This document shows, piece by piece, positions 1,599 through 63,494 of a DNA stretch of 64,000 nt; within the stretch, counting starts at the first letter, position 1; every line of letters starts with the position of its first letter. Source of the stretch: Leucoraja ocellata. Lineage: Eukaryota. Below the pieces are notes generated by a model. That model did no database searches. It was not told where the DNA came from and was given only the letters and a program-made list of their open reading frames with translations. The translations under genes and the position numbers were made by a program. The stretch lies in assembly GCA_036785375.1 (NCBI GenBank), contig JAWMAR010000201.1, positions 1,798,001 through 1,862,000 of the forward strand, in the 5' to 3' direction.

Positions 1599-1634
1599 AG
1601 GTGAACCAAATGAAGTCAAATTTACAAAATAAAG
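1599..1634 (+). CDS. Micro-exon 1 (36 nt) (E)[11 protein letters not shown]
   Basis: ttcttttag|AGGTG...ATAAAG|gtatat; the first residue assumes the upstream exon ends in G. Confidence 0.8.
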
Positions 1635-4600
1635 GTATATTCTAAATTCTTCTCCATATAGGTGTCATTGTAGACATTATCCGTAACGTTACACGGGGAG
1701 AACTGCAATCTTGTGAACCTTGTGTCTGTTGAATTAATCACGTAAATTAGCCTTCGACTACCATGCCACGAGTTAATATATGTCGCAGATTGTGATCAAA
1801 TTTCTCCGTCTTTTCTCTGTGACATTGCATTGCCAATTTTGGTGGAGGTTCTTGAACCGGAAATAAAATATTCGTGACGCAGATGTTATTTATGTGTAAT
1901 TTGAAGATATCTGTAATGTCATTCAGACGTATGCCATTATAAATGTATGCCATTTACTCCATGCGTATAGAGTATGCACACCTCCCTTAAAATGCGATTT
2001 ACCAATGCTCATATTTTCATACCTTGAACGTCAGAACGTAATGTGCTAACTTTCGACCACGTCCTATATTAACATTAAACGATTGTTCCAACTTTCTGAG
2101 CTCTTCAAACTAATGTTCATGAATATTCCCTGAACAACTATAGTAAATATTTTCCACAGATATACATCCAGCGGTGACTGCGCATATATTTTTGCTTGAT
2201 ATCGTAAACTAGCACGTCCATACCGCAGCAGGTTGGGTCACGGGAGAGCAGCGGGCTGGGACACTCCCGGAAGCTAGCCTGACACCCCCTCCGCGGTCAG
2301 ACGTGGGAGGAGGACTCGCGCGCCGGGAAACAACTACAGGGGAGGACTCGCCCTCCGCTGTCCAATATCGGAGGATAACTCTCACCCCGTAGAACGACGA
2401 CGCAAGGCTAGGCTCGAACACCGCATATTACAAATCGGCCCGAGCCACCGGCTTCGACGGGAACTGCGCCGTCGAGAGCGAGGAGGAACCGAGAGCGAGG
2501 TGGACCGGTGAGAGCAATGGGGGGTGGGCGGCGGGGGGCTGGTTGGGGGAGAGGGGGGGCAATGGAGGCGGCTGTGTGTGTGGGGGGATATACCGATAAT
2601 AACTTTGAACGAGGGGGGGGACCCAGCCTGTGGGGGGGAGGGGGGGGGAGGGGGTCGCCAAGAACAAAGGTGGACCGGATGGAAGGCCGCGAGAACAATG
2701 CGCGAAGTGGCGTGGGGTGGTGGGGACGGGGGTTGCTGCTGCAGGTAGTATAATCGACTGTTCGGTGCTTTTATAACTTTGGCGGCGCCAACAAGTGGCG
2801 ACACTGGTGGACTGCCGAGGTTACATGCAAAACAAAGCTTTGCATTATGCCTAGCACAATCTACTGGTAACAGTCAAGTATCATTCATTCATCCATTCAT
2901 TCTCGCGGTAACCACTACTGTTATTTATCACAGATGACCAGCTGCAAAAAGCAAATAAAGGCAAGTAGACTAAATCATTTGCAATTTCTTATTAGAATAA
3001 TCGGTTGTGAATATGCTCATGATGCCTAAATTGCGCATTACCAATCACCCAATCAAAGGAATCTAATAAAGTTGTTTCACAAAGACAATTACCATCAACC
3101 CATTGGGGATTATTGACCAATTCAAAACGAATGCGAAGAGCGCTGTGCTCCTCCCGCCATTGCATCTACGAAAACTGATCATTCCTTATGCGTATCGTTG
3201 TGCTCTTGAAATATAACCCGATAAAGTATATTTACTAGAGGCTTTTAAGCTTCATCACGTTTAATTAGAATGCCAAAAGAAAAAAAGAGTTTTACTACTG
3301 CTAATATGAAGAAAATGATTTCGGACTATTAGCATTATCTGGCAATGAAGATGCTACTCGATGTCCTATACCTCTAGCATCAGATCAACATTATATGTCG
3401 TAAAGAAAACATGGTTACGCAATTCCTACTCGGCTCTACCGCTGCAAATATAGTTCCACCCCAGAGCCGTAATCATACACTACGTTCAATGCATGTTTTT
3501 GTTGCCTCCTTAGAAGCCGACGATATTCGCCAGAACTGGAGTAAGCAGATTTTTTCTGAAAGCTATATATTATGCACATCCTCTCGTCATGTGACCACAT
3601 TCCTTAAATAATATCACATCTAATTACTAAAAGGCTCACCTTGTCTGCCTGTGTGTATATGCGTGTATGTTTTGTATCTTCCTCAAAATGCTAAGCGCTC
3701 GCGCTTAAATTGTTATATATTCTAATTCACATTTTTCCCGTACACGCCGAAGTCAGGTTCATTTAAGATTTCATCCGATATTTCACATGTTATTAATTAA
3801 AAATAAAAGCCCAAAACCACTTCTCACAGGCAGCCTTTTTCCAGCAGCTTCCAGTGATGATGGCACAATGCCACTCACAATGTATAAATCACAATGGTCT
3901 CTCAAGCTGCCGAGTGCCACAATTACATACAATGGGACGTTGCCAACGGTAACTGCAGCTTCTCACAGAGCCCTTTCCCACGAGCTTCCAGTGATGATGC
4001 TATTTTCACGTTATTGATGATTAAAGCTTTAAAAATGCCAGCTTTAACAAGATTTTTAGTTCAAATCCTTCCTGCCATATTCCAATACGCCGATACTAAA
4101 TTGCAATACAGGAACACTCAGGCCGTTTCACCTTAATGGAGTACACAACACGTGCTTTAACCGGAGGGGTTGCTATTACAATTGGAATTTTTATTCCAAG
4201 TCCACTGCTGAGGAAGGCAGGGGAGTGCTATAACCTTACGTTCGGGAATGAGTTCAGATGGGGCACTACGCCCCACATTGGACTACCACTTAGTAATGCA
4301 CCATTGCGTTGGGGAACGGGTTGTGTTTTTTTAGTGACCAGCCCTCGTGTGGGACAAGGAGCCAACGGGTCCCACGGTCTAGTTGCTCATAAAAGTTAAT
4401 TATGTTTTCGCAATATTCTATATTGTATATTCTATTCCCCAAATCATTGTTTTGCATGCGTTATAACAGAGCAAACAATAATCTAAGTGCCTCGTTGTAA
4501 AAGCATTTCCGCACTTCTCGACATCACACACGATAGTGATGCTGTTTCTATAATCTCTGCTGTGCTCTCATTTTATCCCCGAAGTGCGTGGTTAGATTTT

Positions 4601-7600
4601 TATAAGAAATAAAAACGCTCCTCGGAAGCATTCCCAACGCACACTTAAATAATTAAAATGCATTCTAGTCTATAACCAATATTCCGTGTTCAAGGAACGC
4701 ACCTCAGCAATTTTTTTTAATTTATTCGTATCAGAATTTCCAAACAACGAAATGCAAATTAATTGAAACATTTTCAATAATACGACCGTCATTCCAGTAA
4801 ATGAATGACCCGATATGATTTTGAACGATGTTTTGTTTTGGGGCTGACGGAAGTGATGTTTTAAACAGAAAATAGTACGATCAATTGTGGTTCTATTGAC
4901 AAAACACTTGGTCTTTCAAAACATATTTAAAATTGCAGACAAAATTCATAAATTGAACAAACTACTAAACCTGTGATGTGAATACTAAATCAAGCTAAAT
5001 ATATTGGCTTCCTCAAATAAATTTGCTTTGCCTCTCATTATCAAATTATGTTTGCGTGGTGATCTGAAGGTATGTAATACATACTGCTCTGCCTGTGCTT
5101 GTTCTTTCGCCTTCAGTGTTTGTGATTTTGGTAACACAAAAATGTCATAAAACACGTAACGTATGACCATATCGTGGCAGTGGCAGTGGCCGCAAGTGTC
5201 ACATTGACTTAATCATCCACCCTTACCTTACTCTATTGAGCCAGGTTAACGATCACTTTGCAGCAAAATGGATTTACGGTCCTAGAAGTGCCACGGTTCT
5301 ATGCCTTTATTGATGTTCAATATCTCCGTTTTCGACTTTTCTACGTTCATTGCGCTTTGCTGAATTATTAGCGTTTTGATAGTCGGTGTGGTAAAGGTGC
5401 AAGGTACTTGTCAGAACCCATCACTGCCAGGCATGGTTTGGACAATTATCTGGAAATTTGTGAGTTGTAAAAATTGAAATCCTTGAATTATTTTTTTCAG
5501 ATTACTTTGAACTTCCGAAAATGTCCAAATATTCACATTCCTTTGAATGTGAAAAATCAAATACAATTACGTTTTGAAAACAATCCTTAATTAATCACTT
5601 CATTCACACATCATATTTTGTGTTCTCAAATCATTTGAATGGTGGGACGAATTTGTCTGCCGCTCGAAACCAATTTCGGTAAATTTACGGAGGTTGGTGA
5701 GAAGATGCACTCCACTTCTGGATTCAAGAGAGGGGCCCAAAATTGGAGTTCATCGTTGAACTGTCAGGATTTCTTAAATCTATGCGCATATGCATGGAAT
5801 TGCCAGCGCTTGATTAAATGTAAGACTAGCAGCTGCGCAACATGGGGACGAAGGTTTTCCAGACCTTAAAAATAAAATGCCTATTTAATTGTGTTCACTA
5901 GCGGCATTCTGGATACCCTACAGTAATTTTCAGGATATCCCTCTATGTCCGAGAGAAAGACGTATGGCCAGGCAGCCGATACGTCATTATGTCAGCATGT
6001 TTCGCTGCATGGTAACGCAAGACAAACAATTCAATTTGGCAGGCAACTCCTCAAGTTGAGGCCGTACATCATGGAAGGTTGAAGAGGGAAACGTGTTCTA
6101 CCATTCAGTCGGTAGAATTTATCATACACAGGCCATTGAAAAGTACGTTATATCAAAATTAAAATACACATTACAGCGGAAGAATCGAATTCAGGAACAT
6201 ATTCGACGAATGGATACGTTTCACTATATGTGAGGTTCTCTGAAGATGATTAATATTTGTTATGAGGATGTCTCCCAATCTCCATGTTTGAAATACTTTC
6301 TGAAAAGTGTACCTTGCTTTATTGCTTTTAAGAAATTCATTTTTGGTGTTCTCATGACAGAAATGACGACGGAGCAAAATGATTCAGGTAAAAGTCTCAC
6401 TTTATGACTAATGTTTGGTGTACATTGTCATGTCGTTGTTATTGGCAGTGTCGATGTTAGAAGAATCGTGTTTTATATTATTGACACCAAATTATCAAAT
6501 GGTATGGACTGGTGGCTGACTAATTATTTGGTGTGCTGATATGTTTTTATTCTCAGAAATCAAAAAACTTCGCGATCAGTTAAAAAAGATCGGTAAGTAA
6601 AGCTTCAAAACAATATTAGACAAACGCAGCGGTAAATCATCAGGAAATCATATCAGTTATAATTGTTGAATAAGTGATTTTCATCCTTTTCATTGGAAAA
6701 TGGTGGGATCGCTACGTTCGCGACGCTAATATTAGATCGCTACGTTCTTAACTACAAAATATTCGTGCATTTACAAATATTTTGTTCAAACCTTTCACAG
6801 AAAAGGAGAAGAGAGGTAAATCCATCAGTTTTCGATAAGTAAATTTAACCGCAGCAAACATCGTGTTGCTACGCACCGTCATTTGTATAGTTCGCCTGAT
6901 TTACGGCTTTGCATTCGTCGCATTCTTCCACTTACAAGTTCAATAGGAGAGATAAGTAGCTTCTCAGGTCGTATCATATCTCTTCTGCATTTACTAACAT
7001 TCTGACCTCTTTTTGAACGTGTGGCCACATTCATACAGTGAGTCACAGTAATCCGATGTCTGATCCCTTTAAAAACTCTGGTAATGGCGTTAAAATTTGC
7101 TGAGCGGCGAAATCCAACTGTATCAATTTGAGTCACAGACTCGGATTTCAAATTGTATTATTGCTATAAATGTGCTTCGAAATAGCTCCAAACATTTCAA
7201 AAGCAGGACGTGCCGGCATTGGAAACCTGGAAAGAAACAGGCATGACTGGAAATAATCTGGAGGACACCCATAATCATTTTCGGAACAAAATCGCATTAT
7301 GGTGCAATAGCAAGATCTCGACATCTACTATTTCATTCCACCGACTATTTTGCCACTTTTCACCAATTTGATTCATGCTATCATGTATATCAGGAGACAC
7401 CCAGGTGCACTGGTCAATACAACCCCATTGTAACAAACAACAGTTAGATTGTGAAAATAAAGACTGATGCTTTGTGTTGTGAGATTGGACGTATCCAACA
7501 GAAAATTCGTCACCAATGTTAAAGTTATCTTCAAGCTAGGACTAACCCGCATTAGAAATTATCATAGCTTTAGGCAATAGACAATAGGTGCAGGAGCAGG

Positions 7601-10600
7601 ACATTTGGCCCTTCGAGCCAGCACCGCCATTCAATGTGATCATGGCAGATCATCCGCAATCAGTACCCCGTTCCTACCTCATCCCCATATCCCCTGACTC
7701 CGCTATTTCTTGAAAGCATCCAGAGAACCTGCGTCCTCTGAGGTAGCGAATTCCACAGAATTCGGAAACATTCTAAAAGGAGCGAAATTCCCGAGTTCAG
7801 ATGAGTGTTAGAATGCGATTACAAGGCAGTACGTGGTCAGGGCGGCTTTAAAGATATCCTTGAACCATAATCTCGGATACATCAATATAAATACAGAGCA
7901 AGCGTGTTAAATTGTAGAAGCACTCACACGTCAGGCGACAGTAAGAAATAAGGTTCATGTTTGTGATCGAGATCCTCTCAACAGAAATTTAAATTACGGG
8001 AAATGTAAGAACTGCACATGCTGGAATCTTGAGCAAAAAGCAAAGTGCTGGAGGAACGCAAAGGGTCAGGTAGCATCTGTCAATCCTTTCCCTTTCCCCT
8101 GACTCTCTTTCTGAAGAAGGGTCCAAATCGGCACCTTTTCATTTTCTCCAGATATGCTGTCACGACCGCTGAATTACTCCAGCATTTTTGTGACCGTCAT
8201 CGGTTTAACCCAGCATCTGCAGTTCCTTCCAAGGCATCATATTGAACTTCAATAGAATACCATGGTTCATGAGCCAATTGCATCGAAACGACAAGGAAAC
8301 TCCGCCCATTCCTTCTCAACAGCAAGAAATAGTTGTTTTGTGCAGGTAAGCCGCCTATAACCCTCCCACCACGAGCACTAATCCCCGGTTTCCCTTTGAA
8401 TGCGAATCATGTCAAGGTAATTTTCAGAAAAATACACAAAATACTAGTTATTCCGCGGGTCAAGCAGTATGTGTGGAGAACATGATAGGCGATGTCCTCG
8501 GACACAGAAGTAGGGTCCGGACCAGAAACCTCATGCTCTTCAGTGCTGCCTGGCCTACTTATCCAGCACTTTGTACCTTTTTTGTAAAATAGCATCCACT
8601 GTTTCTTGTAGTCAGGTTTATTGTCCGACACGCGAGTTTGATGGGGTACAGCTGTAATGAAAAACCTGCTGCCACATCTTTACAGGCACGAATGCTCAAA
8701 CAGCAAATATAAAGATAATTTATACATTCATTTTTCATAACTTACATATACATTCTGCAAGATATTTAAGAGTAAAAAATGTGCATAGAAGTGCACCTGA
8801 TGGACCGGAGTGTTCCATTGTCGTGCATCAACACCCTGGTAGCTGTCGGAAATGCATTGTTCCGCAACTTGCTGGTGTGGGACTTCAGGCTTTTGTTCTC
8901 AGCACAGAATAATTAGAAGACTGAATGTATTTATCATTCACCTGCTGCAAGTGTAAAATTATAAATCTAAATGTCATGAGTGAATGCTTACAAATAGCGG
9001 TGTGGGGATAAATATGTAATTTCGAACTAATTTTACGGTTAATGTGTCATCTTAATAGATCTAGAAAAACACAATCTCATCGAAGGTGAGAAATCGAACA
9101 AACATATTCAAGTAGTGAGGATACCTGTCGGCAAAATAATATACACTACTGTTGATCCTACCGTCTCCTCATAACGAATGTGACATTTGACATTATTATG
9201 AAAGTCAGGATGCTGTTCTGGTCACACTTCTAGAATTAAAGCTTATAATTGAACTATTCTACTTGCATTTCCTGCAACCCTTGATATATACCTGCATTGC
9301 TGCGTTCTTGGCATTCCGTGTTCAACACAACTCGCAATATATCAACGGACATTATTGTTTCAACGCAAACTTTGTACCTTGCGTTGTAAAGCATTTTACC
9401 ATTTACTGACAAGACGTCTTCGTTTTCTTTCTGGGTTGAGAAATAATGCATTGTACCAACGTTACTGTGCAGATGGTCAGGTCGTAATGTAATTCGAGTA
9501 GATTATTTTATGGCTGTCTTTTCAACCAGTTATATTCCCTACGCTGGACCCGTCGTCTCACAGATCACGATAATTTAAGACAGAGCAAATCCAATTCAAG
9601 AAACTTAAGATAAACTTTAGATAACATGGTTACATTGAGTACTTCTATTGACATCCTCTCTATAACATGTTTCTTAATAAGCCATAACCCTCTGGGCAAA
9701 CGCAATTTATTATTCTTTGCTCTCCTTTACTTTGCCAGTTTGACTGCCCACCACTCCTGACCTGTTGCTGCTGCACTTTGCTTTTCACTTTCATGTTCTG
9801 CGCTATTTCCCCTTTATCTCAATTTCCCAGCTCTCTGCCGATCTATCCTTCCTGCCACCATTCTCAACTAATTCTTCCTTTTTCCTCCCTTTCGTATCTT
9901 CTGCTACTCAACATATCTGAAGCACACACACTCATCCGTTCACTCCCATTTACCTATTGCTCTACGTATTGCTGTGCCTGACCGACATTCCTCACGCGAT
10001 GATACAATGCGCATTCAAGCACGACAGCTATTCAATAAAGCCAGGATATTATGCCAAAAGATGAACCTTCCGCAATTACTTTCAAATGTAGCAAAGTACC
10101 CCTTGTAACAGGAAAACGGTGCGAGACTATAAATGACTTCTATTTGGTCAAAAGCAGGTTATATGTATGTGAGCATGTGCTTTAAGCCGGGAAGGGGGGC
10201 GCGCCATACAATCATTAAGCGCAATGAATGTCGAGGTTGGCCTGCATGTCAAACATTCATTTTATTATGCAGATGATTTTACATACAGAAACGATTTACA
10301 GTAAAAGAAAAACGGCCCTTATTCTCCGTTTTCACGATAATAAGTGATAAAATCGGTACAAACCAAATGCACAAAATGAAACGTGACTTCAACGTGCACA
10401 CCATTAAATATTACTCTCACAATCATATCCTTAGAGAGCAATAATAATAATAATAATAATCTTATTTATATAGCACATTTTTAGTCAACTTGCATTGACC
10501 CCAAAGTGCTTCACATAATTACATTACATTTACACACAGGCAAAGGTGGGTGAAGTGTCTTGCCCCAAGGACACAACGACAGTATGCACTCCAAGCGGGA

Positions 10601-15537: not shown

Positions 15538-15583
<46 letters not shown>

Positions 15584-54500: not shown

Positions 54501-57500
54501 AGAAAACAATAACCATACGTGAACTGAGAACCAATTAAAAAAGGGGGAGGCAAAGTGATGTTGACAAAATATTGTATGATACGAGCCTTGATCACTGCAG
54601 AGAATCTTCTAAGGATTTATATGCCGAAGTATTGGAATATGGTAGGGTGGGTGGCGTGAGGTACAAATGAGGAAACATGAAGTTCCCTCATGATTGGGTC
54701 GCTGAATCTCACTATTTGTTTTCAGAACTGGAAAATGTTACAAAAAATCTTCAAAGCACAGGTGAGTGGAAAGTTTCTGTATCACAACTCACTTGTTATC
54801 ACACAATATGATTACTACACACACATACGTCACTTTGTTTTGCATATAGATAGCTTAAGACATTAACGACAGACAGAGTCGAGGATAGAGGAGACATTTG
54901 CCACTTAAAAAGCCAATGATGGAAGGATTGTCTGGAATCCCACAAAACGCATCCCAATTCTGCAAGCCAGCCATATGTGTGCAAGAATGTGAAATACCCA
55001 AACATGGCGACAAATGTCAGTATAGGATGTCCACCTCTTTACAATTATGGGCTCATCATAATGTCCGTGTGGAGAGACGTACATCTAAATTTCCCTTCTG
55101 CTCCAGGGAAGACGTGGTCGAAATAAAAGCCATGTATTTGAATTAAGAGAAAGGATCGAGAGAGAGATGAACATTGAACTAAATTTGCATTTCCGCACCG
55201 TTTTAAACTTCCTTTGTGCGCTTTATGAGCTCGAATGTATATTTTTTGCGTTTATTTCCATGTTGCTATTTCAAAAGTTTGATATTTAATGGATTCTAAT
55301 TCCTGATTTTCTTCCTGATCATAGCAACATGCAGATACCCCATCGCCATTATATATCGTTTCCATTATCCCAAATCTGTCTGAAGAAGGGAATCGACCCG
55401 AACCGTCACCCATTCTTTCTCTTCAGAAATGCTGCCTGTTCCGCTGAGTTACTCCGGTTTTAAACCAGCATCTGCAGTTCCTTCCTGTCAATGTCTTGAT
55501 GGGTTGACAAATTGATTGATCGGAGATATCGCTTGGTCTCCAGTCACAGATCTTTCAGCATTTTTGCGGTGGTTTCTTCTCAGATATTGCATACAGTGAC
55601 AACTAGTTGGCAAGAATGCAGCGATTGACAGCTCAAACGTTCCGGGAGTCACGAGTTATCAACCCGACAAATAACGTTTTTTAGAGATGAACCAACAGAT
55701 GTCTTAAATGGGACAGCACGTATCAGGTGTCGGGCATGGCTACACGCACAGAAAGCGATATTTATAAGGATATGAACCGCTCAATATATACGAGTCATTA
55801 TAGATAATTTTAATTATTGTTAGAACGGGCATAGGTAGGCCGTTAAACGCCTCAACGACCTGAAAAATGGCATCTCAAACGCAAAATTTGGATTCGGAGG
55901 AAATGTTATTCCTCGGAGATAACATCATATATTAGGACCGAGGCAATAGTAGAGACGAGAATTCGTGAAGTCGCTGACTTCTGGGGAATCATGTGGCGCC
56001 ATCTTTAGGCCCAGCCTCTTTGGTCTCGAACTTTCGTTGGTTGAGCTCGAGCTCTCGCGTGAACTGGCGTGACCTGGGCCGAGCAATGAACGCCGATCTG
56101 TGTGGTCAGCTGACAGGGTGCAGGAGACGGAGCTGGACTAATATTAAACTGAGTGTTTAAATATTAGACGAGTGTTTATACAACACGTGAACCTCGTTCA
56201 CTATGCACATACTATGTTCAGATTTCCGCAAATCCAGAATGCTGCATTATTGATCATGTTACGAAGGAGAATATGCTCTAAGTTTTCCGGGTAGTAAAAT
56301 TCGTCAATGTCATATGTAGTTCTGAGGTTCAGGCTTTCTTTCTTACAATGACCGGGTAATGTTTCGATCCCTGGTAGTTTGAGTAACGCGCCTCCAAAGA
56401 ACCAATTATGTGATCTGACACATTTACGAACCGCATACTGATATAAAAGTTATCCTAATCTTGGAAAGACACAACATTCGAAGGCCGTTGATATTTCTAG
56501 CTATGCGTGCCCTTTTCAGTTACGTTCAACTGTAAATAATATTGATCAGCTGCCATTACTAGAAACCGTCAAATACTGTTAACATGTTTTGCAGAAAAGC
56601 TATATCAAGATAAGCAACGAAGTAAAGAAAAGGGTGATTACAATTCAGATTTTGGAACACGGTTGCTTGGACCATGTAAATTAGCTTTAATCGTGCTCTC
56701 TGTTTTTCGATTAGATTTACAAAAAGTAAAATATTTTTCCGTGGTATCGTATAGTCCTACACCTATTGTTCGAAGTTTCGGACATTGTCCTCTGCTATGA
56801 TACGCACACAAGATCGGAGAAAGAGAAGCATATGTACACCGTTGGAAACCCTGTATCTAAGCCACTAATGAAAAAGCAACGTCAGAACTTCTCACTGATC
56901 AATTTCCAACACTATCCCTCTATCACGTGATTCCCTGAATATTCACGTACCTGTCAGTCTCGGTCTTAAATATGCTGAGTGGTTGAACCTCCGCAGATAT
57001 CTTGGCGGGAGGGGAGGAACACCAAAATTGCAATATCGCTTCTTACCTCTGCTTGGAATACCCGTCAGATAATTCGAGACCCTCACAAAATATCACAAAA
57101 ATTCCTCAATTGATCCCTCGTTCCACCTCTGCTACTACATTTAGACCATGATCGTGCTTCGCTTCATCCACAACCCCGTTCCCACACCATCGTCCCCCAC
57201 ACCCCCCCTCCAACACACACCCCCTTCCCCACATACCTCCCTTCCCCACGTACCCCCTTGCTCACATACCCCCTTCCCCACATACCCCCTTCCCCACACC
57301 CTACCTTCCCCACACACCCCCTTCGCCACACCCTCCTGCCCCAACACCCCCATTCCCAACACAACCCCTCCCCACACACCCTCTTCCCCACGCCTCCTTC
57401 CCCACGCCCCCCATTCCCACATTCCCCCATCCCCAACCCACTTCCCTACATCCCCCCCTCTACAACCCCCCCCCCTTCCCTACACACCACCCTTCCCAAC

Positions 57501-60500
57501 ACCCCCTTCCCCTAATATCCCCTTCCGCACCCCACCCCACCCCCCTGCACCACACCCTTCCCCACACCCCACATTCCCCACACATCCCCCTTCGCCACAC
57601 CGCCCCTTCCCCACGCCCCCATTCCCCACGTAACCATTCCCGCCACACCCCCTATCCCACACCCCACATTCCCACCCTCCCCATTCCCCACACAACCCCT
57701 TCCCCACACCCCTCCCCTTCCCAACCCCACCCCATTCCCCACACCCCCCTCCCCACAACCACCCTTCCCCAAACACCCCCTTCCCCACCCTCCTTCACCA
57801 CACCCTTGCTTCCCCACGCCCACCTTTGCCACACCCCCCTCGCCCTTGCCACACATCCACTTCCCCACACACACCCTTCCCCACACACCCCTCTCCCCAC
57901 ACACCTCCCTCCCCGCACAACCCCCTTCCCCACACACCCCCTTCCCACCACATCCAACGGGTCCCACTTAGTCTAGTTTACCTTTAAGTTCGTGATAATC
58001 TAGTGTAATATTAAAATAATAGAACTCCTATGGCTATCATCCAGCATTTATCAAGTTCATGTAAATGCTTACGTTTCAATAGCACTGCAAATCCAGAGAG
58101 AAGGTAATCTCATTGCCCATTATATCATATCCTTTATTGCGTGAAAATTACTCAATATTTTGGGTATCATACAACGATGGAAAATATCCCCAATTGTTTT
58201 CATTACATTGAGAAGTGTTACAAGGTCATGGAATGCGAAATATTAAACACGTGTTCTTGATTTCCTTTCTCCAGAATTAGAAAACGTGTCAAAAAAACTC
58301 AATGATTGTGGTAGGTTGCAAAGATTGCCTTTCTGGTGGCAATAGAAACATAGAAACATAGAAAATAGGTGCAGGAGTAGGCTATTCGGCCCTTCGAGCC
58401 TGCACCGCCATTCAATATGATCATGGCTGTTCATCCATAGACTTGACTATTGTCAGAAAATTGGCTCAAGAACCTAATCTGGATCCCTACAAACCGAACC
58501 GAGCTGCGCATGATCGAGAAATAGACCACCTCTTTTATCTCCAAAGGTTGGCCGATTGTGTTTACGAGCAGGGTGACTGTATAAATTCCTTACCCTATTT
58601 AAAAATAGATCTCAATTTTAATCTTCCGATGCTTCGGCGTTCATTCATCGTGTGTCAATCAAAGGGAAGTTGGAAGGTTTTCCATACATTGTTTGGATAT
58701 GACAGATTTACTGTGATGAATACTTGCTCTAATTCTGCTAAACCTGCTTTTCCAGAACAAAACATGTCTGCGAAGGAGAAAGGTGAGCGCAATTAATTGA
58801 TTCAATCTGATTGCGTTATCTGAAAAATAGAACACTTCCGCTCTGTCCGCCATGGCCTACCATGGTCTTCGCTCCTTAGATGCTGCTGCACCCGCTGAGT
58901 TTCTCCAGCTGTTTTGTGTACCTATGGCCTACCTGATGCCTGGTTGTTAAGTATTTTAACCTCCTTTTCCATCCCCATATTGATGTTTCTGTCCCAGCCC
59001 TCCTCCTTTGCGCGAGTGAGGCCATACGCAAAATGGGAGGAACAGAAGCACACCCACCCTCCCCCCACCCCCGCCCGCTTTCTTCAACCTTCCCCTCTGC
59101 CCAACATAGACCCGAGCCTTGGCCTGTTTTCACGATTGACCTGCCATGCTTTATCCTGTCCCTCTTCTCTTATAGCTGTCTCTTCCCCTCCTCCCAATAT
59201 CATCTCAATCACGGTCTCGACCCGAAACGTCACTTAACCATGAGTTATTGCGGCACCTTGCGTCTTTTTGTTAAGATAATAGAAAATGGATGTTGTACAC
59301 CTCAATTTGTGATAATGACGCATAAAGCACGGAAATAAGTCCAATGGTTTATTATGTCCGTGGTGGACATCATTTACAGCATTAACTGATATCAATCTAA
59401 TTGTCCAGCCATAGATTCTACAAACGGCCATGACGTGATCTCTCAAGAACACGCAGAATGTCACATGGTCTGATTGTAGCACTGATGAGAGGAAACCGGA
59501 ATATGTTATCTCGAAGACGATTATTTGAAATAACATTTGACCTGAGTGGCCATCAATACACCGATTTGTAAAAAGTAATAACGCTTCGCCAACTGGTATC
59601 TGATTTTAAAAAAAGGAAAGCAAATCAATGTACCCGAAATATAGCATGGTACGAGCCATGATCCCTGCACGTAACCTTGGAATGATTTAGATGCCTAAGT
59701 ACTTGAATATGACACATAGGTTAGAGAAATATACGAATGGGCGATAATAATGTCGACTGAGATACACTCTGGAATTTAGAAGGATGAGAGGTGGTCTTAT
59801 TGAAACATAAGATTACTAAGGGTTTGGACACGCAGGAGGCAGGAAGAGGCGGTAGAGGCAGGAGATATGTTGGAGGAGTCCAGAACCAGGGGCCACAGTT
59901 TAAGAATAAGGGATAATCCATTTAGAATGGCGATGAGGAAACACAATTTCACACAGAGAGTTGTGAGTCTGTGGAATTCTCTGTCTCTGAGAGCGATGGA
60001 GGCTGGTTCTCTGGATGCTTTCAAGAGAGAGCTAGACAGAACTCTTAAAGATACCGGAGTCAATGGATATGGGGAGAAGGCAGGAACGCGGTACTGATAG
60101 TGGATGATCACCTGGAATGGCGGTGCTGGCTCGAGTGGCCGAATGGTCTACCCCTGTACCAATTGTCTATTGTCTATATTGAGCTCGAACAATAGAAAAT
60201 GATTTGCTTGCTGAATATCACTTAATTTTCTCAGAACTGGAAAATGTTAAAACTAATCTTCGAAACTCAGGTGAGTGAAAAGTTAGTCCATCACAAATGA
60301 TATGTTATAAATTATTCTAATTACTAAACAGACCTAAGTCATTTATGTTAGCTTATAGATGGTTTATGGCATGAACTACTGTATTTCTTAAAAATACGCG
60401 AGTTGTAGAGAATATGGGTAATATTTCCCACATACACACCTAATGATGGGATTGTCATCTGATAACATAATGAATGCATGTCATGCAGGCATTTGGCTTA

Positions 60501-63494
60501 AATAATGTAGCGTGCCACAGGTAATTGTGCATGGATGTGAAAGGCCCAAACATGGCGACAGATATCAGCATAGGTTTTCCACGCGTCCCCAATATTGGCC
60601 TCGTCATGAAATCCGGGGGGAAAGCGCGTGCCTATTTTTTACTGCTCCGAATGAAACGCTTAAACGAAAATCAAGTCATTTTCTGTATTAAGAAGAAACG
60701 CTCTCGAGATACACGAACATTGAACTAATTCGCATTTGTTTCAGTTTGTTCAAATGTTTCAAATTTCCTTCCAGCATTTGCTGAACTCGAATGTTTCCAA
60801 TATGTTTCAGCGATTAGTTACATTCTAACATTTCTAAGGTTTCATTTTTAATAGATTATAATTAATTGTTCCCGTTGATCATAGAAAAATGCAGAAACGA
60901 TTTCATTGAACAACAGATTTCTTACGGTAGACACAAAATGCTGGAGAAACGCAGCGGGACAGGCAGCATCTCTGGAGCGAAGAAATGGGTGACGTTTCAG
61001 GTCGAGATCCTTCTTCAGACACTCTAACAGAATTCTTACGACGGTTGAAACTTTTAGCAATGTCGGACATCGCTGCACTCATAGAAACATAGAAACATAG
61101 AAATTAGGTGCAGGAGTAGGCCATTCGGCCCTTCGAGCCTGCACCGCCATTCAATATGATCATGACTGATCATCCAACTCAGTATCCTGTACCTGCCTTC
61201 TCTCCATGCCCCATGATCCCTTTAGCCACAAGGGCAACATCTAACTCCCTCGTAAATATAGCCAATGAACTGGCCTCAACTACCTTCTGTGGCAGATAAT
61301 TCCAGAGATTCACCACTCACTGTGTGAAAAATGTTTTTCTCATCTCGGTCCGAAAAGATATCCCCAATCATCAAAGATTTTGATACGGATTTGCATCGTT
61401 CAGTACGGATGAGTGATCAAGGGTAATTGTAAGTGATTGGAACGGACGTACGGTGTCGGTTAACCACCTAAACGTAGTTTTATGGATGCTAGAATCCCTA
61501 GAAGTTCTAGAGACGATGCATCAAAATCATGCTTTCAAATTGCATCACAGCCTGGTTTGCGGATAGATCTGCGCAAGAAATGGCACAGAGGACCTGATGT
61601 AGCCCACGCCATATTCGACTTGATTCCCCACCAGTGACCCCATATACAATTCAACCCACCTCGGAATAACAGCCGTCATAACCAAGTCTCGGCCATTCCT
61701 TCGTCTCCCCACCCCCGTGGGGCATAAGATGCAGAAGTTTGAAAACGAGTGCCACGAAACACATGACCATCTTTTTCTCCTCTGTTATGTGACCTGAAGA
61801 TTCCTTTCATAAGCTAGGGTACACAAGCCGATCCCCTCTACCACAGTGTGGTGATTGGACTTCGTCCCACTTGCTGTTGCGCTATAGCTCTAACACATTC
61901 AGCACTGTATCTCTCCCTTCACTCTATAAATTGTATTTCGGTTTGGCTTGATTGTATTTATGTGTATTATTTTCTCATACGATTGGATCGCATTTTCACT
62001 GTACGTCGGTACACGTAAAACTAATAAAACTGCAGCTAAATCTAAGCATAACCTCGCATATACCATGGCACCCCTCCTTCAGTTCCATCAGAAACTCCAG
62101 CAACACTGCAAACATGCAAACCAAACCATCAATATATATGTCCAAATCATTTATAAAGATCCCAATAGAAATCCAGCGCAAATCCCTACACATCTCCATT
62201 GGCCACAGTCCTCCAGCCAGAATTCACCATAATTCTTTGTCTTCTGTTAGTAAGCTAATTCTGCATTCGTAACACCAAATCACCGTTAACCAGCGCGTTT
62301 TCAAATTCTGCATTAGCCTATTCAGGGGGACGTTATCAAATGCCTCACTGTATTCCATATAGACAACATCTATGGCCTTACCTTTATCGTGCATATTCGT
62401 ACTCTACTCAAAAAAGTCGATAAAGTTAGAAAGATATATCCTGCCGTCAACAAAGCCGTGTGGACTATCCCTAACTAGCCCATTCTCTTCAAAGCAGAAG
62501 AGACAGCTATCCTGAAGAATCCACTCCAATAGTTTTCCTACCAACGACCTGTGGCTCATCGGCATGTAATTCCCTGCATGCTTTTAATTTCAGTGCTTAT
62601 GCAGATGAAGACTACAAGCTACACTCCATCCCTCCGGGATCTAAACTATCATTAATGAAGATTCCAAAATCCCCTGCAATCACATTATTTCCCTCTCTTA
62701 CTAACCTATGAGAGATCCCATATATCCACCGCAATACTTTTCAACAGCCTCGTAACTACTGCACATTTTTCTGTCCTTAAACTGTACTTGCATATTTGTA
62801 TTCTCCATAGTGATCTCATTATCCTGCATGCCCGTCTGCTTGGTGAATACACATCCAATGTAGTTTACTATCCCTCCTCCACCCTCTGACTCCTTTGTTC
62901 TTGTGCGGCACCATCTTCTACAAACTGCACGTGTAAAATACATGGGATTTTCTATAATCCGATTGGCCAGCGAATTTTCATGCCCTCTAATCGCAAGAAC
63001 AGGCTGGCACTGAGGTTTCATCACCTGGCCATTAACAGATGCTAGATGCTAGTATTAGGTCTGGTATAGTTCCTCCTCGAGTTAGACTATGCACATAACC
63101 TTTTCGGATTTAGCCAAATCCAGCTTTGCCGCACTACTGGTCATGTTATGAAGGAGAACGCGAGCTGGGTCGCTCGGGTAGTGAAATCTCAATTATAATT
63201 CAGGCTTTCTTTCATACAATGACCGGGTAATCTTGTAACCGGTAGTATTTTGTGCCACGCACAAATATACCGCACGTCCATTGATACCCAATTAATTGAT
63301 CTGACAAATTTACTGACTGAACACTTACACAATTCGAAAGCCGTTGCTATGTTTAACTATCCATGCTTTTTTAATTACGTTCAACTGTAAATTATATTGG
63401 TCAGCTGCCATTAGGAGAATCCTCCAAATAGATTAACGTTATTTCTGTCTTGCAGAAAATATATATCAAGATAAGCTACGAGATAACGAAAAAG
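1599..63494 (+). CDS. Partial multi-exon gene (both ends outside the window): about 32 phase-1 micro-exons encoding a ~337-aa coiled coil with a 21-aa repeat
   Basis: Each exon has an acceptor AG and a GT (once GC) donor, a length divisible by 3 and the same phase. Joined: (E)[336 protein letters not shown]. No stops, no Pro. Confidence 0.88.
2230..2901 (+). repeat. GC-rich interspersed repeat ending in a (TTCA)n tail
   Basis: GC-rich body with poly-G runs and a tcattcattcatccattcattc tail. Similar GC-rich blocks lie at ~19170-19980, ~24720-25310, ~25690-25960 and ~26500-26750. Family unresolved. Confidence 0.45.
2934..2960 (+). CDS. Micro-exon 2 (27 nt) [11 protein letters not shown] donor
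   Basis: ttatcacag|ATGAC...ATAAAG|gcaagt. Confidence 0.75.
3619..4382 (+). mobile_element. Non-autonomous Helitron-like element
   Basis: A|TCTAATTACTAAAAGGCTCACCTTG ... GTGGGAC-aaggagccaacgg-GTCCCAC hairpin, then GGTCTAG|T. Confidence 0.78.
6557..6592 (+). CDS. Micro-exon 3 (36 nt) [12 protein letters not shown]
   Basis: ttattctcag|AAATC...GATCG|gtaagt. Confidence 0.88.
6801..6815 (+). CDS. Micro-exon 4 (15 nt, tentative) EKEKR
   Basis: cctttcacag|AAAAGGAGAAGAGAG|gtaaat; irregular size, but it preserves heptad register together with exon 5. Confidence 0.55.
7575..7760 (-). mobile_element. CR1/HER1-type LINE 3' end
   Basis: caatagacaataggtgcagg...cccttcgagccagcaccgccattcaat matches the reverse complement of the CR1 tails at ~34060-34135 and ~60110-60177. 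Confidence 0.75.
9059..9085 (+). CDS. Micro-exon 5 (27 nt) DLEKHNLIE
   Basis: catcttaatag|ATCTA...CGAAG|gtgaga; an alternative in-frame acceptor 6 nt downstream would give 21 nt. Confidence 0.65.
10441..10657 (-). mobile_element. tRNA-derived SINE with a (TTA)n tail
   Basis: Minus strand: B-box GGTTCGAATCCC, body gtgtccttggggcaagacactt, tail gtgctatataaataagattattattatt (L2-like 3' end). Confidence 0.7.
11230..11830 (+). mobile_element. Degraded CR1 LINE fragments
   Basis: [14 protein letters not shown]...WIQNCL (RT-like), followed by a CR1-type 3' region. Confidence 0.65.
12790..14490 (+). mobile_element. 5'-truncated Rex1/Babar-type non-LTR retrotransposon with an uninterrupted RT ORF (12904-14322)
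   Basis: [57 protein letters not shown]; tail (TCTGAA)n. Confidence 0.93.
15378..15404 (+). CDS. Micro-exon 6 (27 nt) DEEMREKNA
   Basis: ttttggtacacag|ATGAA...CGCAG|gtgcaa. Confidence 0.75.
15436..15540 (-). mobile_element. Retroposon 3' tail ending in (AAG)n, RTE-like
   Basis: cttcttcttcttcttgcgtatggcgtgcacagcc...; family call is tentative. Confidence 0.4.
15541..15596. repeat. (TA)n microsatellite
   Basis: Directly visible. Confidence 0.95.
15680..16150 (+). mobile_element. CR1/HER1 3' fragment
   Basis: [10 protein letters not shown]...LDRYMD, then an 8-bp terminal repeat gactctat x2. Confidence 0.8.
17158..17193 (+). CDS. Micro-exon 7 (36 nt) [12 protein letters not shown]
   Basis: gcttcaccgcag|AGATA...TACAA|gtaagg. 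Confidence 0.85.
17408..17570. repeat. G-rich low-complexity tract (GGGGTGTG-type)
   Basis: Same composition as the Helitron cores; no termini seen. Confidence 0.6.
18345..18525 (+). mobile_element. CR1/HER1 3' fragment
   Basis: Nearly the same sequence as 33926-34135. Confidence 0.8.
19098..19124 (+). CDS. Micro-exon 8 (27 nt) TGSITAQHE
   Basis: ttttattcag|CGGGA...TGAAG|gtaacg. Confidence 0.78.
20440..21560 (-). mobile_element. Degraded Rex1-type LINE fragment
   Basis: [11 protein letters not shown]...[12 protein letters not shown] resembles the start of the 12.8-kb element; many frameshifts. Confidence 0.6.
21853..21888 (+). CDS. Micro-exon 9 (36 nt) [12 protein letters not shown]
   Basis: ttttctcag|AAATT...TAATG|gtgagt. 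Confidence 0.87.
22375..22920 (+). mobile_element. CR1 3' fragment
   Basis: [10 protein letters not shown]...[15 protein letters not shown]-like coding remnant plus 3' UTR. Confidence 0.8.
22992..23018 (+). CDS. Micro-exon 10 (27 nt) EESLTVKDK
   Basis: accttcag|AAGAA...TAAAG|gtgggg. Confidence 0.83.
25325..25688 (+). mobile_element. Rex1-type LINE 3' end
   Basis: [22 protein letters not shown]; tail aataaacttgacttgacttga. Confidence 0.7.
26038..26073 (+). CDS. Micro-exon 11 (36 nt) [12 protein letters not shown]
   Basis: acctcttcag|AATTG...AAATG|gtaagc. Confidence 0.9.
26790..27026. mobile_element. Palindromic MITE, PIF/Harbinger (Tourist)-like
   Basis: Long inverted repeats TGCCCCTGTCCCACTT... 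/ ...AAGTGGGACAGGGGCA flanked by TAA on both sides. Confidence 0.85.
27225..27960 (-). mobile_element. Degraded non-LTR RT C-terminal fragment, clade unresolved
   Basis: [10 protein letters not shown]...VYANDAIIY (degenerate YADD); [17 protein letters not shown]. Confidence 0.75.
28123..28149 (+). CDS. Micro-exon 12 (27 nt) VQQRKRESD
   Basis: caccatcag|TACAG...TGACG|gtaaga. Confidence 0.75.
28759..28794 (+). CDS. Micro-exon 13 (36 nt) [12 protein letters not shown]
   Basis: cttgatacag|GACTC...TTGTG|gtgagt. Confidence 0.87.
29838..29864 (+). CDS. Micro-exon 14 (27 nt) EQDLRKTTN
   Basis: aataaccag|AACAA...CAATG|gtaagc. Confidence 0.85.
30068..30393 (+). mobile_element. tRNA-derived SINE, HE1-like
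   Basis: A-box-like ggtgtcgcagcggt, B-box ggattcgatcc, CR1-shared tail gggccgaagggcctgtttccgtgctgtat, (TAAAC)n end. Confidence 0.8.
31384..31419 (+). CDS. Micro-exon 15 (36 nt) [12 protein letters not shown]
   Basis: ctcatttatag|AAATA...GGCCA|gtaagt. Confidence 0.87.
32193..32219 (+). CDS. Micro-exon 16 (27 nt) KQGLKNKDT
   Basis: tttatcattag|AACAA...TACAG|gtgaca. Confidence 0.85.
32600..35200 (+). mobile_element. Old fragmented CR1 LINE with nested younger insertions
   Basis: ORF1 esterase-like [14 protein letters not shown] (~32800); endonuclease remnants [10 protein letters not shown] (~33650) and [11 protein letters not shown] (~34190); RT C-terminus ~34700-35200. Interrupted by a Penelope fragment and a younger CR1 3' piece (~33760-34135). 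Confidence 0.7.
33005..33380 (-). mobile_element. Degraded Penelope-like element 3' fragment
   Basis: Minus strand [22 protein letters not shown] resembles the C-terminus of ORF 47692-48261. Confidence 0.7.
35340..35375 (+). CDS. Micro-exon 17 (36 nt) [12 protein letters not shown]
   Basis: ttgcattacag|ACATA...TTGCG|gtgagt. Confidence 0.87.
36930..37520 (-). mobile_element. CR1 3' fragment
   Basis: [16 protein letters not shown]...[12 protein letters not shown]...GIWNAMP. Confidence 0.8.
37900..38330 (-). mobile_element. Degraded CR1 3' fragment
   Basis: Similar to 36930-37520. Confidence 0.55.
39548..39574 (+). CDS. Micro-exon 18 (27 nt) EKSLTQKNK
   Basis: ccttacattag|AAAAA...CAAAG|gtaagg. 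Confidence 0.87.
39986..40021 (+). CDS. Micro-exon 19 (36 nt) [12 protein letters not shown]
   Basis: ctcctgttcag|TATTA...TACAG|gttaga. Confidence 0.83.
40256..40468. other. Assembly gap (N run)
   Basis: 213 N. Confidence 0.99.
40660..41275 (-). mobile_element. Rex1-type LINE RT C-terminal fragment
   Basis: [11 protein letters not shown]...[11 protein letters not shown]...[11 protein letters not shown], homologous to ORF 12904-14322. Confidence 0.85.
41628..41654 (+). CDS. Micro-exon 20 (27 nt) DEELNNKNK
   Basis: ttccctgcag|ACGAA...CAAAG|gtaagc. Confidence 0.88.
41670..42634. mobile_element. Harbinger-like MITE, longer member spanning a gap
   Basis: Inverted ends GCCTGTCCCACTTAGATGACCTCCACAGCAACCTCTGGAGAC / GTCTCCAGAGGTTGTTGTGGAGGTCTCCTAAATGGGACAGGC; TIR related to 26790-27026. 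Confidence 0.75.
42284..42449. other. Assembly gap (N run)
   Basis: 166 N. Confidence 0.99.
43940..44031 (+). mobile_element. 92-bp Penelope-terminus-derived insertion with a hammerhead-like core and a 13-bp TSD
   Basis: CTGAAGA-agggtctggaacc-GAAACGTC; flanked by TCTGGACTCAGGT at 43927-43939 and 44032-44044. Confidence 0.65.
44143..44178 (+). CDS. Micro-exon 21 (36 nt) [12 protein letters not shown]
   Basis: cctctccgcag|AATTA...TAGCG|gtaagt. Confidence 0.88.
44885..44911 (+). CDS. Micro-exon 22 (27 nt) EEKLLNKTK
   Basis: tttcactgcag|AGGAG...CAAAG|gtatgc. Confidence 0.87.
46531..46566 (+). CDS. Micro-exon 23 (36 nt) [12 protein letters not shown]
   Basis: attatgccag|AGTTG...TTGTG|gtaagt. 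Confidence 0.88.
47110..47136 (+). CDS. Micro-exon 24 (27 nt) EMNLRNKGK
   Basis: ttgctgctag|AAATG...AAAAG|gtatgg. Confidence 0.86.
47488..48240 (-). mobile_element. Penelope-like element 3' part (GIY-YIG endonuclease plus terminal repeat)
   Basis: [33 protein letters not shown]...[12 protein letters not shown]; terminal ctgaagaagggtttcggcccgaaacgttg. Confidence 0.9.
48240..51040 (-). mobile_element. Degenerate Ty3/Gypsy LTR retrotransposon internal region
   Basis: Minus-strand order: gag (50573-50851, zinc-knuckle remnants ~50210-50310), protease (IVDAGS ~49950), RT N-terminus ([20 protein letters not shown]), integrase ([15 protein letters not shown]). RT core and RNase H deleted; multiple stops; no LTR pair seen. 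Confidence 0.85.
51157..51192 (+). CDS. Micro-exon 25 (36 nt) [12 protein letters not shown], paralog of exon 23
   Basis: catcgtacag|AGTTG...TTGTG|gtaagt. Confidence 0.88.
51741..51767 (+). CDS. Micro-exon 26 (27 nt) ELNLRNKGK, paralog of exon 24
   Basis: ttgctgctag|AACTG...AAAAG|gtatgg. Confidence 0.86.
52150..52900 (-). mobile_element. Degraded Rex1-type LINE fragments
   Basis: [20 protein letters not shown]...; a [11 protein letters not shown]-like frame matches the KAHQRLYFLRR region after a frameshift. Confidence 0.6.
53424..53660 (-). mobile_element. CR1/HER1 3' end
   Basis: catagagtcatagagt...ggaaacaggccctt; reverse complement of the 15900-16150 type. Confidence 0.78.
54726..54761 (+). 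CDS. Micro-exon 27 (36 nt) [12 protein letters not shown]
   Basis: tttgttttcag|AACTG...CACAG|gtgagt. Confidence 0.9.
56595..56633 (+). CDS. Micro-exon 28 (39 nt; an internal GT would give 27 nt) [13 protein letters not shown]
   Basis: gttttgcag|AAAAG...AAAGG|gtgatt; alternative donor CGAA|gtaaag after 56621. Confidence 0.78.
57170..57976 (+). mobile_element. Helitron-like 3' part with a ~780-bp C-rich (CCCCACAC-type) tract
   Basis: Ends CCAACGGGTCCCACTTAGTCTAG|T like the other two copies; no 5' end found. Confidence 0.65.
58275..58310 (+). CDS. Micro-exon 29 (36 nt) [12 protein letters not shown]
   Basis: ctttctccag|AATTA...TTGTG|gtaggt. Confidence 0.9.
58756..58782 (+). CDS. Micro-exon 30 (27 nt) EQNMSAKEK
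   Basis: gcttttccag|AACAA...GAAAG|gtgagc. Confidence 0.88.
59750..60177 (+). mobile_element. CR1/HER1 3' fragment
   Basis: [12 protein letters not shown]...[12 protein letters not shown]; tail attgtctattgtctat. Confidence 0.85.
60235..60270 (+). CDS. Micro-exon 31 (36 nt) [12 protein letters not shown], paralog of exon 27
   Basis: ttttctcag|AACTG...CTCAG|gtgagt. Confidence 0.9.
61081..61360 (-). mobile_element. CR1/HER1 3' end, young
   Basis: (atagaaac)n tail followed by conserved 3' UTR; shorter copies at ~58343-58436 and ~31990-32130. Confidence 0.85.
62050..63000 (-). mobile_element. Degraded CR1 RT fragments
   Basis: [18 protein letters not shown]; minus strand [14 protein letters not shown] (~62330-62370). 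Confidence 0.65.
63456..63494 (+). CDS. Micro-exon 32 (39 nt) [13 protein letters not shown], paralog of exon 28
   Basis: tgtcttgcag|AAAAT...AAAAG|gtgact. Confidence 0.82.

What the first reader, a model, noticed from the sequence alone, without database searches (positions are those of the whole stretch)
1599..63494. Hidden gene: a 62-kb array of about 32 alternating 36/27-nt micro-exons encoding a 21-aa-repeat coiled coil
Seen in sequence: 15 exons of 36 nt, 14 of 27 nt, two of 39 nt and one of 15 nt (1011 nt, 337 codons). All are on + and all are phase 1-1. From exon 6 onward a 36-nt exon strictly alternates with a 27- or 39-nt exon. The joined peptide has no stop or Pro, and hydrophobic residues recur at positions 2, 5, 9 and 16 of each 21-aa unit, so each exon pair is three heptads. 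Coding sequence is only ~1.6% of the span, so ORF-based annotation misses it. Established knowledge: butyrophilins and chicken BG proteins build coiled coils from small heptad exons (mostly 21 nt), and the CD23 stalk uses 21-aa repeats on 63-nt exons. Inference: a split 36+27 module repeated about 15 times or more is an architecture I do not recognise. It may be a lineage-specific expandable stalk or rod.
Basis: partly seen in the sequence, partly recalled or inferred. Interest (0 to 1): 0.92.

Follow-up and report, generated by a model that had tools for sequence, protein, structure and literature searches.

The report
Giant micro-exon coiled-coil B30.2 gene
The tiny exons are real and are most likely the middle of a roughly 510,000-base cartilaginous-fish gene that spells out a very long helical rod in about 200 pieces of 27 and 36 bases and ends in a butyrophilin/TRIM-type binding domain, one of several such genes in this genome.

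Summary
Confirmed, and larger than reported. The 32 window exons belong to an array running about 192 kb upstream and 254 kb downstream: 204 high-confidence phase-1 exons, 2,101 codons. Of 141 exons picked by splice sites alone, 1 has a stop in phase 1, against 91 and 68 in the other phases. The array ends in an intact B30.2 (SPRY) exon. A head-to-head paralogue starts 20 kb from the first exon, and that interval holds no detectable Ig, RING, B-box or membrane exon. More arrays lie on this contig and three other examined loci. The B30.2 forms its own clade with shark, ray and chimaera database models that carry automatic names; one chimaera model is a 1,697-residue rod with the same repeat. 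Best reading: a butyrophilin-like tail without ectodomain, a roughly 300-nm cytoplasmic rod tipped by B30.2. Caveats: no transcript seen, the true 5' end is unknown, three scaffold gaps lie inside the gene, and recent exon duplicates drift near-neutrally (dN/dS 0.91). This scan noted the same design before in another shark genome (e1-8029465, e1-8029509). New variant of a known kind.

The parts
1599..63494 (+). Window part of the micro-exon array (32 high-confidence phase 1-1 exons, 1,011 nt). The gene runs beyond both window ends: first recognisable exon 191,679 bases before the window (L031:8321); last exon, encoding B30.2, at window-relative 318,208-318,728 (L056:4208-4728); head-to-head paralogue B on the - strand from 211,962 bases before the window outward
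   Evidence: ends and paralogue:
1599..1634 (+). 36-nt exon
2934..2960 (+). 27-nt exon, GC donor
3514..3540 (+). weak 27-nt candidate, not counted
   Evidence: score 2.3
6361..6387 (+). 27-nt exon
6557..6592 (+). 36-nt exon
6801..6815 (+). 15-nt exon
9059..9085 (+). 27-nt exon
15378..15404 (+). 27-nt exon
17158..17193 (+). 36-nt exon
19098..19124 (+). 27-nt exon
21853..21888 (+). 36-nt exon
22992..23018 (+). 27-nt exon
26038..26073 (+). 36-nt exon
28123..28149 (+). probable 27-nt exon, below threshold; fills the one break in alternation
   Evidence: score 6.7
28759..28794 (+). 36-nt exon
29838..29864 (+). 27-nt exon
31384..31419 (+). 36-nt exon
32193..32219 (+). 27-nt exon
35340..35375 (+). 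36-nt exon
39548..39574 (+). 27-nt exon
39986..40021 (+). 36-nt exon
41628..41654 (+). 27-nt exon
44143..44178 (+). 36-nt exon
44885..44911 (+). 27-nt exon
46531..46566 (+). 36-nt exon (recent duplicate of 51157)
47110..47136 (+). 27-nt exon (recent duplicate of 51741)
51157..51192 (+). 36-nt exon
51741..51767 (+). 27-nt exon
54726..54761 (+). 36-nt exon
56595..56633 (+). 39-nt exon
58275..58310 (+). 36-nt exon
58756..58782 (+). 27-nt exon
60235..60270 (+). 36-nt exon
63456..63494 (+). 39-nt exon

Best explanation
The window is the middle of one very large protein-coding gene of a cartilaginous fish, probably a ray or skate (inferred from the tree). About 200 symmetric phase-1 exons of 36 and 27 nt are spliced into a rod of 21-residue units (12+9), three heptads each, at least 2,100 residues or roughly 310 nm long, ending in a B30.2 (PRY-SPRY) domain. 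It works like the cytoplasmic half of a butyrophilin: a parallel coiled-coil spacer that carries a B30.2 binding head. It has lost or never had the Ig ectodomain, and the rod is hugely lengthened. Most likely it is a cytoplasmic tether or filament-binding scaffold, as shown for the chicken BG tail (zipper protein, actin-myosin), and B30.2 captures one conserved intracellular partner. Because every exon is a multiple of 3 in one phase, exon pairs can be duplicated or skipped without breaking the frame, so rod length can change in evolution and by splicing. Shown: exons, frame, periodicity, B30.2 end, paralogues, orthologous models. Inferred: splicing into one mRNA, start at the first array exon, dimer, location, partner.
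For: Frame-blind stop test 1 of 141 against 91 and 68. 204 exons alternate long/short in 155 of 203 steps, shuffle mean 99, maximum 127 in 10,000. Hydrophobic core at positions 2/5/9/16; 5 Pro in 2,101 residues. Last exon: Pfam SPRY E 4.9e-15, best solved relative BTN3A1 B30.2 E 1.8e-26, model matches B30.2 folds. Three other B30.2 loci of the same clade have 52 such exons on the sense strand and 1 antisense in 3 x 40 kb. Clade support SH-aLRT 100 for 13 of 156 rows. Callorhinchus XP_042192744 is a 1,697-aa rod plus this B30.2 with 8 matches to the 21-aa profile against 0.16 in shuffles. Two models of that gene differ by 17 blocks, 10 of them exactly 9 or 12 aa. The catshark model's residues before B30.2 resemble this gene's last exons. 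No Ig, RING or B-box match in 734 kb or in 150 of 160 open frames of the 20-kb 5' interval. Glycosylation sequons not enriched, 15 against 11.8.
Against: No transcript or junction of this gene was seen. Three 200-N scaffold gaps lie inside the model (window-relative -52,300, 134,921, 257,890), so the link from the window to this B30.2 exon and to this 5' end rests on scaffolding. Recently duplicated exon pairs show dN/dS 0.91 and are hardly more alike than their introns (0.82 against 0.79; 20 pairs), so most residues are not under visible purifying selection. Only two of three heptads have a full core: positions 12 and 19 are 12% and 10% hydrophobic. The Callorhinchus model starts with a hydrophobic stretch followed by basic residues, which would suit a membrane anchor. 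Arrays A and B on this contig have no B30.2 that I could find. Short or divergent 5' exons would escape my searches. Nothing tested here bears on the binding partner.
Confidence: 0.55

Rival explanations
1. Membrane-anchored form: a short N-terminal anchor, or an Ig plus membrane part that I missed, holds the rod at a membrane, making it a true butyrophilin/BG-like protein with a giant cytoplasmic tail.
For: Butyrophilins have short heptad exons between membrane segment and B30.2 (PMC6790196, passages). Both Callorhinchus models begin with a hydrophobic 15-mer (hydropathy 2.3 for P0128) and a basic cluster. Every array exon is phase 1, so an upstream exon ending in phase 1 is expected.
Against: The 5' interval is only 20.2 kb, has no assembly gap and is shared by two genes. 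No Ig match by tblastn or Pfam. No ATG-hydrophobic exon on +, and one on - against a background of 0.93 per 20 kb. The Callorhinchus N-terminus matched only another model of itself and nothing in the 734 kb. Hydrophobic starts of other short models look like intron read-through (inference).
Confidence: 0.25
2. The window's exons are real but belong to another member of the cluster than the B30.2 exon and 5' end assigned here; the scaffold joins pieces of several paralogues, and some arrays may lack B30.2.
For: Two scaffold gaps separate the window from the B30.2 exon and one from the first exon. Arrays A and B end at a scaffold gap with no last exon found. Four or more array segments on contig C253 have only two B30.2 hits.
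Against: Strand and phase continue across the gaps. The last exons resemble those before B30.2 in the catshark model. Even so the 85 exons of the window's piece between scaffold gaps form one array.
Confidence: 0.15
3. Secreted structural or display protein (jelly, mucus, egg case), like the teleost signal-peptide + 1,400-aa coiled coil + B30.2 proteins.
For: Such teleost proteins exist (P0163-P0165). Symmetric phase-1 exons are common in extracellular modules (own knowledge). Cys occurs at unit position 12 in 9% of 36-nt exons.
Against: Teleost B30.2 domains fall outside this clade and match the 21-aa profile only twice each. No signal exon found; sequons not enriched.
Confidence: 0.08
4. Relaxed or decaying array: a once-functional gene whose exons multiply by tandem duplication with little selection, or a pseudogene.
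For: dN/dS 0.91 on 20 duplicate pairs; no expression shown.
Against: 1 stop in 141 frame-blind exons and fixed lengths across 510 kb; intact B30.2 exon; the design is kept in chimaera, sharks and rays.
Confidence: 0.04

Closest known systems
Butyrophilins (BTN3A1 and relatives)
   Same: Short heptad exons followed by a last exon encoding B30.2 (PMC6790196, PMC8813856, passages); BTN3A1 is the best solved match.
   Different: No IgV/IgC or membrane exon found; about 200 rod exons rather than a few; B30.2 in a separate long-stem clade; the BTN3A1 phosphoantigen-pocket residues (positions recalled, read on the alignment) are mostly replaced.
Chicken BG genes and zipper protein
   Same: Long coiled-coil tail built from many tiny exons, variable in number and alternatively spliced; the tail acts on actin-myosin (PMC4046983, PMC8813856, passages).
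   Different: BG exons are 21 or 24 nt, 13-36 per gene (PMC4046983); here 36+27 nt pairs, over 200. BG has an IgV and a membrane segment and no B30.2; here the reverse.
Guinea-pig enterophilin-1
   Same: Recalled from memory as a cytoplasmic heptad-repeat protein ending in B30.2 with no Ig domain; binds sorting nexin 1 (seen only as a table row and reference title in PMC13749957).
   Different: Recalled as about 45 heptads against about 300 here; its exon structure and B30.2 clade were not tested; the primary paper was not held.
TRIM proteins with PRY-SPRY
   Same: Coiled coil followed by B30.2; databases name the relatives 'TRIM39/58/69-like' or 'A33-like'.
   Different: No RING or B-box in the locus or in the relatives scanned.
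Teleost secreted coiled-coil/B30.2 proteins (XP_026230924, KAL7387049, XP_067384923)
   Same: About 1,400-aa coiled coil ending in PRY-SPRY.
   Different: Hydrophobic signal-like N-terminus, different repeat, B30.2 24-26% identical and outside the clade: an analogue.
Callorhinchus milii XP_042192744 ('nuclear-pore anchor-like') / XP_007898089 ('myosin-2 heavy chain-like')
   Same: Same B30.2 clade, same 9- and 12-residue modules, long rod.
   Different: Automatic annotation only; shorter (1,697 and 1,722 aa); extra N-terminal 100 residues and a Thr/Ser/Asp-rich repeat.

Membership tests
Butyrophilin | C-terminal B30.2 on a single last exon | tested here: met
Butyrophilin | Short heptad exons before B30.2 | tested here: met
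   sizes 27/36 nt, about 200 copies
Butyrophilin | IgV and IgC ectodomains | tested here: not met
   tblastn of 170 stored proteins (21 with an Ig-like motif, one Pfam-verified butyrophilin) against 734 kb: no Ig match; Pfam on 150 of 160 frames of the 5' interval: none
Butyrophilin | Transmembrane segment | tested here: inconclusive
   no candidate above background in the 5' interval; the Callorhinchus model has a hydrophobic start
Butyrophilin | Linkage to the MHC | not tested
   the only neighbour identified is a Kv1-type channel gene
Chicken BG | Single IgV plus membrane segment | tested here: not met
Chicken BG | Many 21/24-nt tail exons and no B30.2 | tested here: not met
   1 exon of 21 nt and 3 of 24 nt among 204; B30.2 present
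TRIM | RING and B-box | tested here: not met
   46 RING-motif proteins among the tblastn queries gave no such match; Pfam none
TRIM | Coiled coil plus PRY-SPRY | tested here: met
CD23/FCER2 | C-terminal C-type lectin domain | tested here: not met
   last exon is SPRY
Enterophilin-like | Cytoplasmic heptad rod plus B30.2, no ectodomain | tested here: inconclusive
   anatomy fits; the definition is recalled, and 5' end and location are unshown
Any expressed gene | Spliced mRNA across the micro-exons | not testable with these tools
   see Tried and rejected

The most novel reading that the evidence does not exclude
An undescribed third branch of B30.2 proteins, specific to cartilaginous fish and at least as old as the chimaera-shark split: clustered genes of up to half a megabase or more, each built from hundreds of 27/36-nt frame-preserving exons, that act as length-tunable molecular rulers (about 300 nm) placing a conserved B30.2 head, with rod length set by exon duplication and by skipping; possibly the Ig-free ancestor of the butyrophilin/BG cytoplasmic tail.
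Probability: 0.4. Interest if true: 0.85.

Novelty: new variant of a known kind. Interest (0 to 1): 0.72.

Why it matters
If expressed as modelled, this is an extreme gene structure: over 200 consecutive micro-exons, 1.3% coding, repeated in several genes that together cover well over a megabase. The database models of its relatives are mostly short and carry misleading TRIM or myosin names. It gives a system for asking how hundreds of consecutive micro-exons are spliced and how a rod's length evolves in 21-residue steps. It also bears on the origin of the butyrophilin/BG heptad tail and on the immune or cytoskeletal toolkit of the oldest living jawed-vertebrate lineage.

Tried and rejected
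Expression: no RNA holder listed for window:54000-63900. Two runs guessed to be RNA (X4, X5) had no contig depth on the B30.2 exon and no splice joints among the joints shown on L080, while a probable DNA run (X1) covered it; this says nothing about expression. P0009 is 100% identical to the C3233 B30.2 but comes from an unnamed run assembly and may be the same DNA, so it is not counted as support. Word-based search with P0001 for longer proteins: none of 104 candidates scored. The Callorhinchus N-terminal 330 aa matched only another model of the same gene and nothing usable in the Atlas. A homodimer prediction for a ray relative returned no verdict, so oligomer state is untested. A genome-wide count of family members was not obtained; numbers of arrays come from samples and are lower bounds. 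Rejected: a 93-nt candidate at -197,247 (begins in a repeat tail); a recurring 36-nt false exon from a LINE, filtered from the counts; 57-63-nt candidates, left out of the high-confidence set; an inversion making A, B and this gene one locus (B's first exons best match this gene's first 30 exons in 11 of 31 cases, against 6 of 166 for its own later exons, 1 of 23 for A and 1 of 6 for late B); orthology with the teleost proteins. Literature: 8 searches found no paper describing this family; the library lacks most subscription journals, two primary papers were not held, and no supplements were read.

Full report
OBSERVATION. I scanned both strands for AG..GT(GC) segments of 9-63 nt with generic splice scores. 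The + strand shows spikes at 36 and 27 nt (13 and 6 at threshold 6) that the - strand lacks (1 and 0). The window lies at G000:C201:1,798,001-1,862,000 in a 3.44-Gb genome. Places outside the window are given relative to its first base.

EXTENT. In 734 kb of scaffold the array runs from -191,679 to about +317,200. A profile trained on its exons finds 106 of 27 nt and 83 of 36 nt on + (leave-one-out) and 2 on - in that span, and none on + in the 108 kb before or 114 kb after. A test that ignores frame is cleaner: 141 candidates chosen on splice strength alone have stops in 91, 1 and 68 cases in phases 0, 1 and 2, and the length spectrum has 70 at 27 nt and 71 at 36 nt against 3 and 4 on the other strand. 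A recurring LINE-derived 36-nt false exon was filtered out before these counts. The high-confidence set is 204 exons, 6,303 nt, 2,101 codons, median intron 2.0 kb; long and short exons alternate in 155 of 203 steps (shuffle mean 99, maximum 127). Coding share is 1.3%.

PRODUCT. The 21-residue unit has hydrophobic residues at 2, 5, 9 and 16 (93, 91, 81, 81%), small residues at 12 and mostly Lys at 19; Glu, Lys and Leu make up 45%, Pro 0.2%. This is a heptad pattern with a polar-weakened core. At about 0.148 nm per residue (own knowledge) the rod would be roughly 310 nm.

THE 3' END. At +318,208 (L056:4208) a phase-1 acceptor opens a 172-codon frame ending in a stop, with AATAAA about 55 nt on. 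It is a B30.2 domain: Pfam SPRY E 4.9e-15, no Pfam PRY hit; best solved relative BTN3A1, E 1.8e-26; a model of modest confidence (pLDDT 66) matches TRIM58, BTN3A1 and TRIM7 B30.2 structures. The next gene is a voltage-gated potassium channel of Kv1 type (Pfam; subtype recalled from the sequence).

THE 5' END. A second array (B) starts on the - strand at -211,962 and runs outward, leaving 20.2 kb without an assembly gap for both genes' first exons. B's early exons best match this gene's first 30 exons in 11 of 31 cases (control 6 of 166), so the two are head-to-head paralogues with related N-terminal blocks, not halves of an inversion. tblastn of all 170 stored proteins against the 734 kb gave only the B30.2 exon and repeat-derived pieces. 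Pfam on 150 of the 160 open frames of 50 or more codons in the interval (ten of the shortest left out) gave LINE domains and two weak sub-threshold hits. No start exon with a hydrophobic core was found on +; one on - equals the background of 0.93 per 20 kb. The first array exon's first whole codon is Met. The start is therefore unproven, but an Ig ectodomain is unlikely.

FAMILY IN THIS GENOME. Six B30.2 hits stand above the mass of TRIM-like hits with four different queries: this one, two on C253, C3092, C3233 and C3305 (the last three may include haplotype copies). The 40 kb before three of them hold 25, 14 and 13 exons of 27/36 nt on the sense strand and 1 in all antisense. Samples show a third array (A, +) on C201 from at least 1,150 kb to 1,432 kb, meeting B at a 200-N gap, and arrays in 11 of 16 samples across 1 Mb of C253 with three strand switches. 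No B30.2 was found for A or B; about half of the A-B interval was not read.

FAMILY ELSEWHERE. Among the best 150 of 2,416 hits in the representative library, the closest single-domain matches are models from catshark, little skate, electric ray, basking shark, epaulette shark and Callorhinchus, named TRIM39/58/69-like, A33-like or BTN3A1-like; those scanned hold only SPRY (one with a weak PRY) by Pfam. In a quick tree (careful search unfinished; 156 rows; 13 isoform rows and short matches left out) they and this genome's copies form one clade, SH-aLRT 100, on a long stem; P0128 has a long branch. P0128 is Callorhinchus XP_042192744, 1,697 aa of coiled coil plus this B30.2, with 8 matches to my unit profile (shuffles 0.16, maximum 2; unrelated coiled coils 1-2; six shorter relatives 0-1). 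It and an older model differ by 17 blocks, 10 exactly 9 or 12 residues, and four isoform pairs in three species differ by single blocks of 9, 9, 9 and 6 residues; two further pairs involving an older model gave 7- and 9-residue and other blocks. These are predicted models whose RNA support I could not see, but the block sizes mostly match the exon sizes. One C253 copy is 66% identical to the electric-ray model, which points to a ray or skate as the source. Teleost 1,620-aa coiled-coil/B30.2 proteins fall outside the clade.

AGAINST. No transcript was seen. Three scaffold gaps lie inside the model: 85 of the 204 exons share the window's piece, 49 lie before and 70 after. Twenty recently duplicated exon pairs give dN/dS 0.91: length, frame and core are kept while most residues drift or diversify; selection for diversity is reported for BG tails (PMC8813856, passages). 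The Callorhinchus model's hydrophobic start keeps a membrane anchor open.

MECHANISM. Most likely (0.55) an ectodomain-free butyrophilin-type tail: a cytoplasmic parallel coiled coil that tethers or spaces, with B30.2 binding one conserved partner; the clade keeps a Trp/Arg-rich set of positions (W80, R82, S84, W90, W95, N96, R105). Growth is by tandem duplication of exon pairs with their introns, seen at 46531/51157 and 47110/51741. Location, dimer state and partner are inference from butyrophilins, BG/zipper protein and enterophilin.

LITERATURE. Seen: PMC12841164 (first of four parts of the text and passages; butyrophilins in all jawed vertebrates, no such family in the parts read); PMC8813856, PMC4046983, PMC6790196, PMC11788884 (passages); PMC13749957 (one table row and a reference). 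Enterophilin's structure and the BTN3A1 pocket positions are recalled. Eight searches found no description of this family; supplements were not read. Two earlier notes of this scan report the same design in another shark genome; my reading was written down before I saw them and they are not independent proof.

VERDICT. Real; a new variant of the heptad-micro-exon plus B30.2 design, not a member of butyrophilins, BG or TRIM by the features tested. Interest 0.72.

Noticed in passing
L060:5943-7475 (window-relative about 359,900, +): Single-frame voltage-gated potassium channel gene (BTB_2 + Ion_trans, Kv1 type) with a poly-Gln stretch, 41 kb after the B30.2 exon; useful as a synteny anchor.
   Followed up: partly
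G000:C201 about 1,150,000-1,432,000 (+) and 1,434,000-1,586,000 (-); L081-L087, L109-L112, L021-L029: Two further arrays (A and B) converge on a 200-N scaffold gap with no last exon found; the short contigs C3233 and C3305 might hold their 3' ends.
   Followed up: partly
G000:C253 738,000-1,926,000 (L068-L075, L093-L108): At least four array segments on alternating strands between two B30.2 exons.
   Followed up: partly
window 46531-47136 and 51157-51767: Recent tandem duplication of a 36+27 exon pair with flanking intron, showing how the rod grows.
   Followed up: yes
window 56595 and 63456; downstream at 74,400 and 75,886: 39-nt variants replace the 27-nt exon (25-residue unit), a local four-residue shift of the heptad register; 56595 also has an internal GT at 27 nt that could be an alternative donor.
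   Followed up: no
L041-L043 (window-relative 164,000-193,000): A young block of about ten similar 36+27 pairs whose 27-nt exons vary strongly and hold two of the gene's five prolines.
   Followed up: no
P0163-P0165: Teleost family with signal-like start, 1,400-aa coiled coil and PRY-SPRY, under automatic names; convergent design, not searched in the literature.
   Followed up: partly
window 58-522 and 57195-57948: G-rich and C-rich simple-repeat tracts inside introns.
   Followed up: no
G000, many contigs: Large expansion of canonical B30.2 exons (990 candidates, 150 scored), many in clusters on C367, C813, C622 and C591.
   Followed up: no
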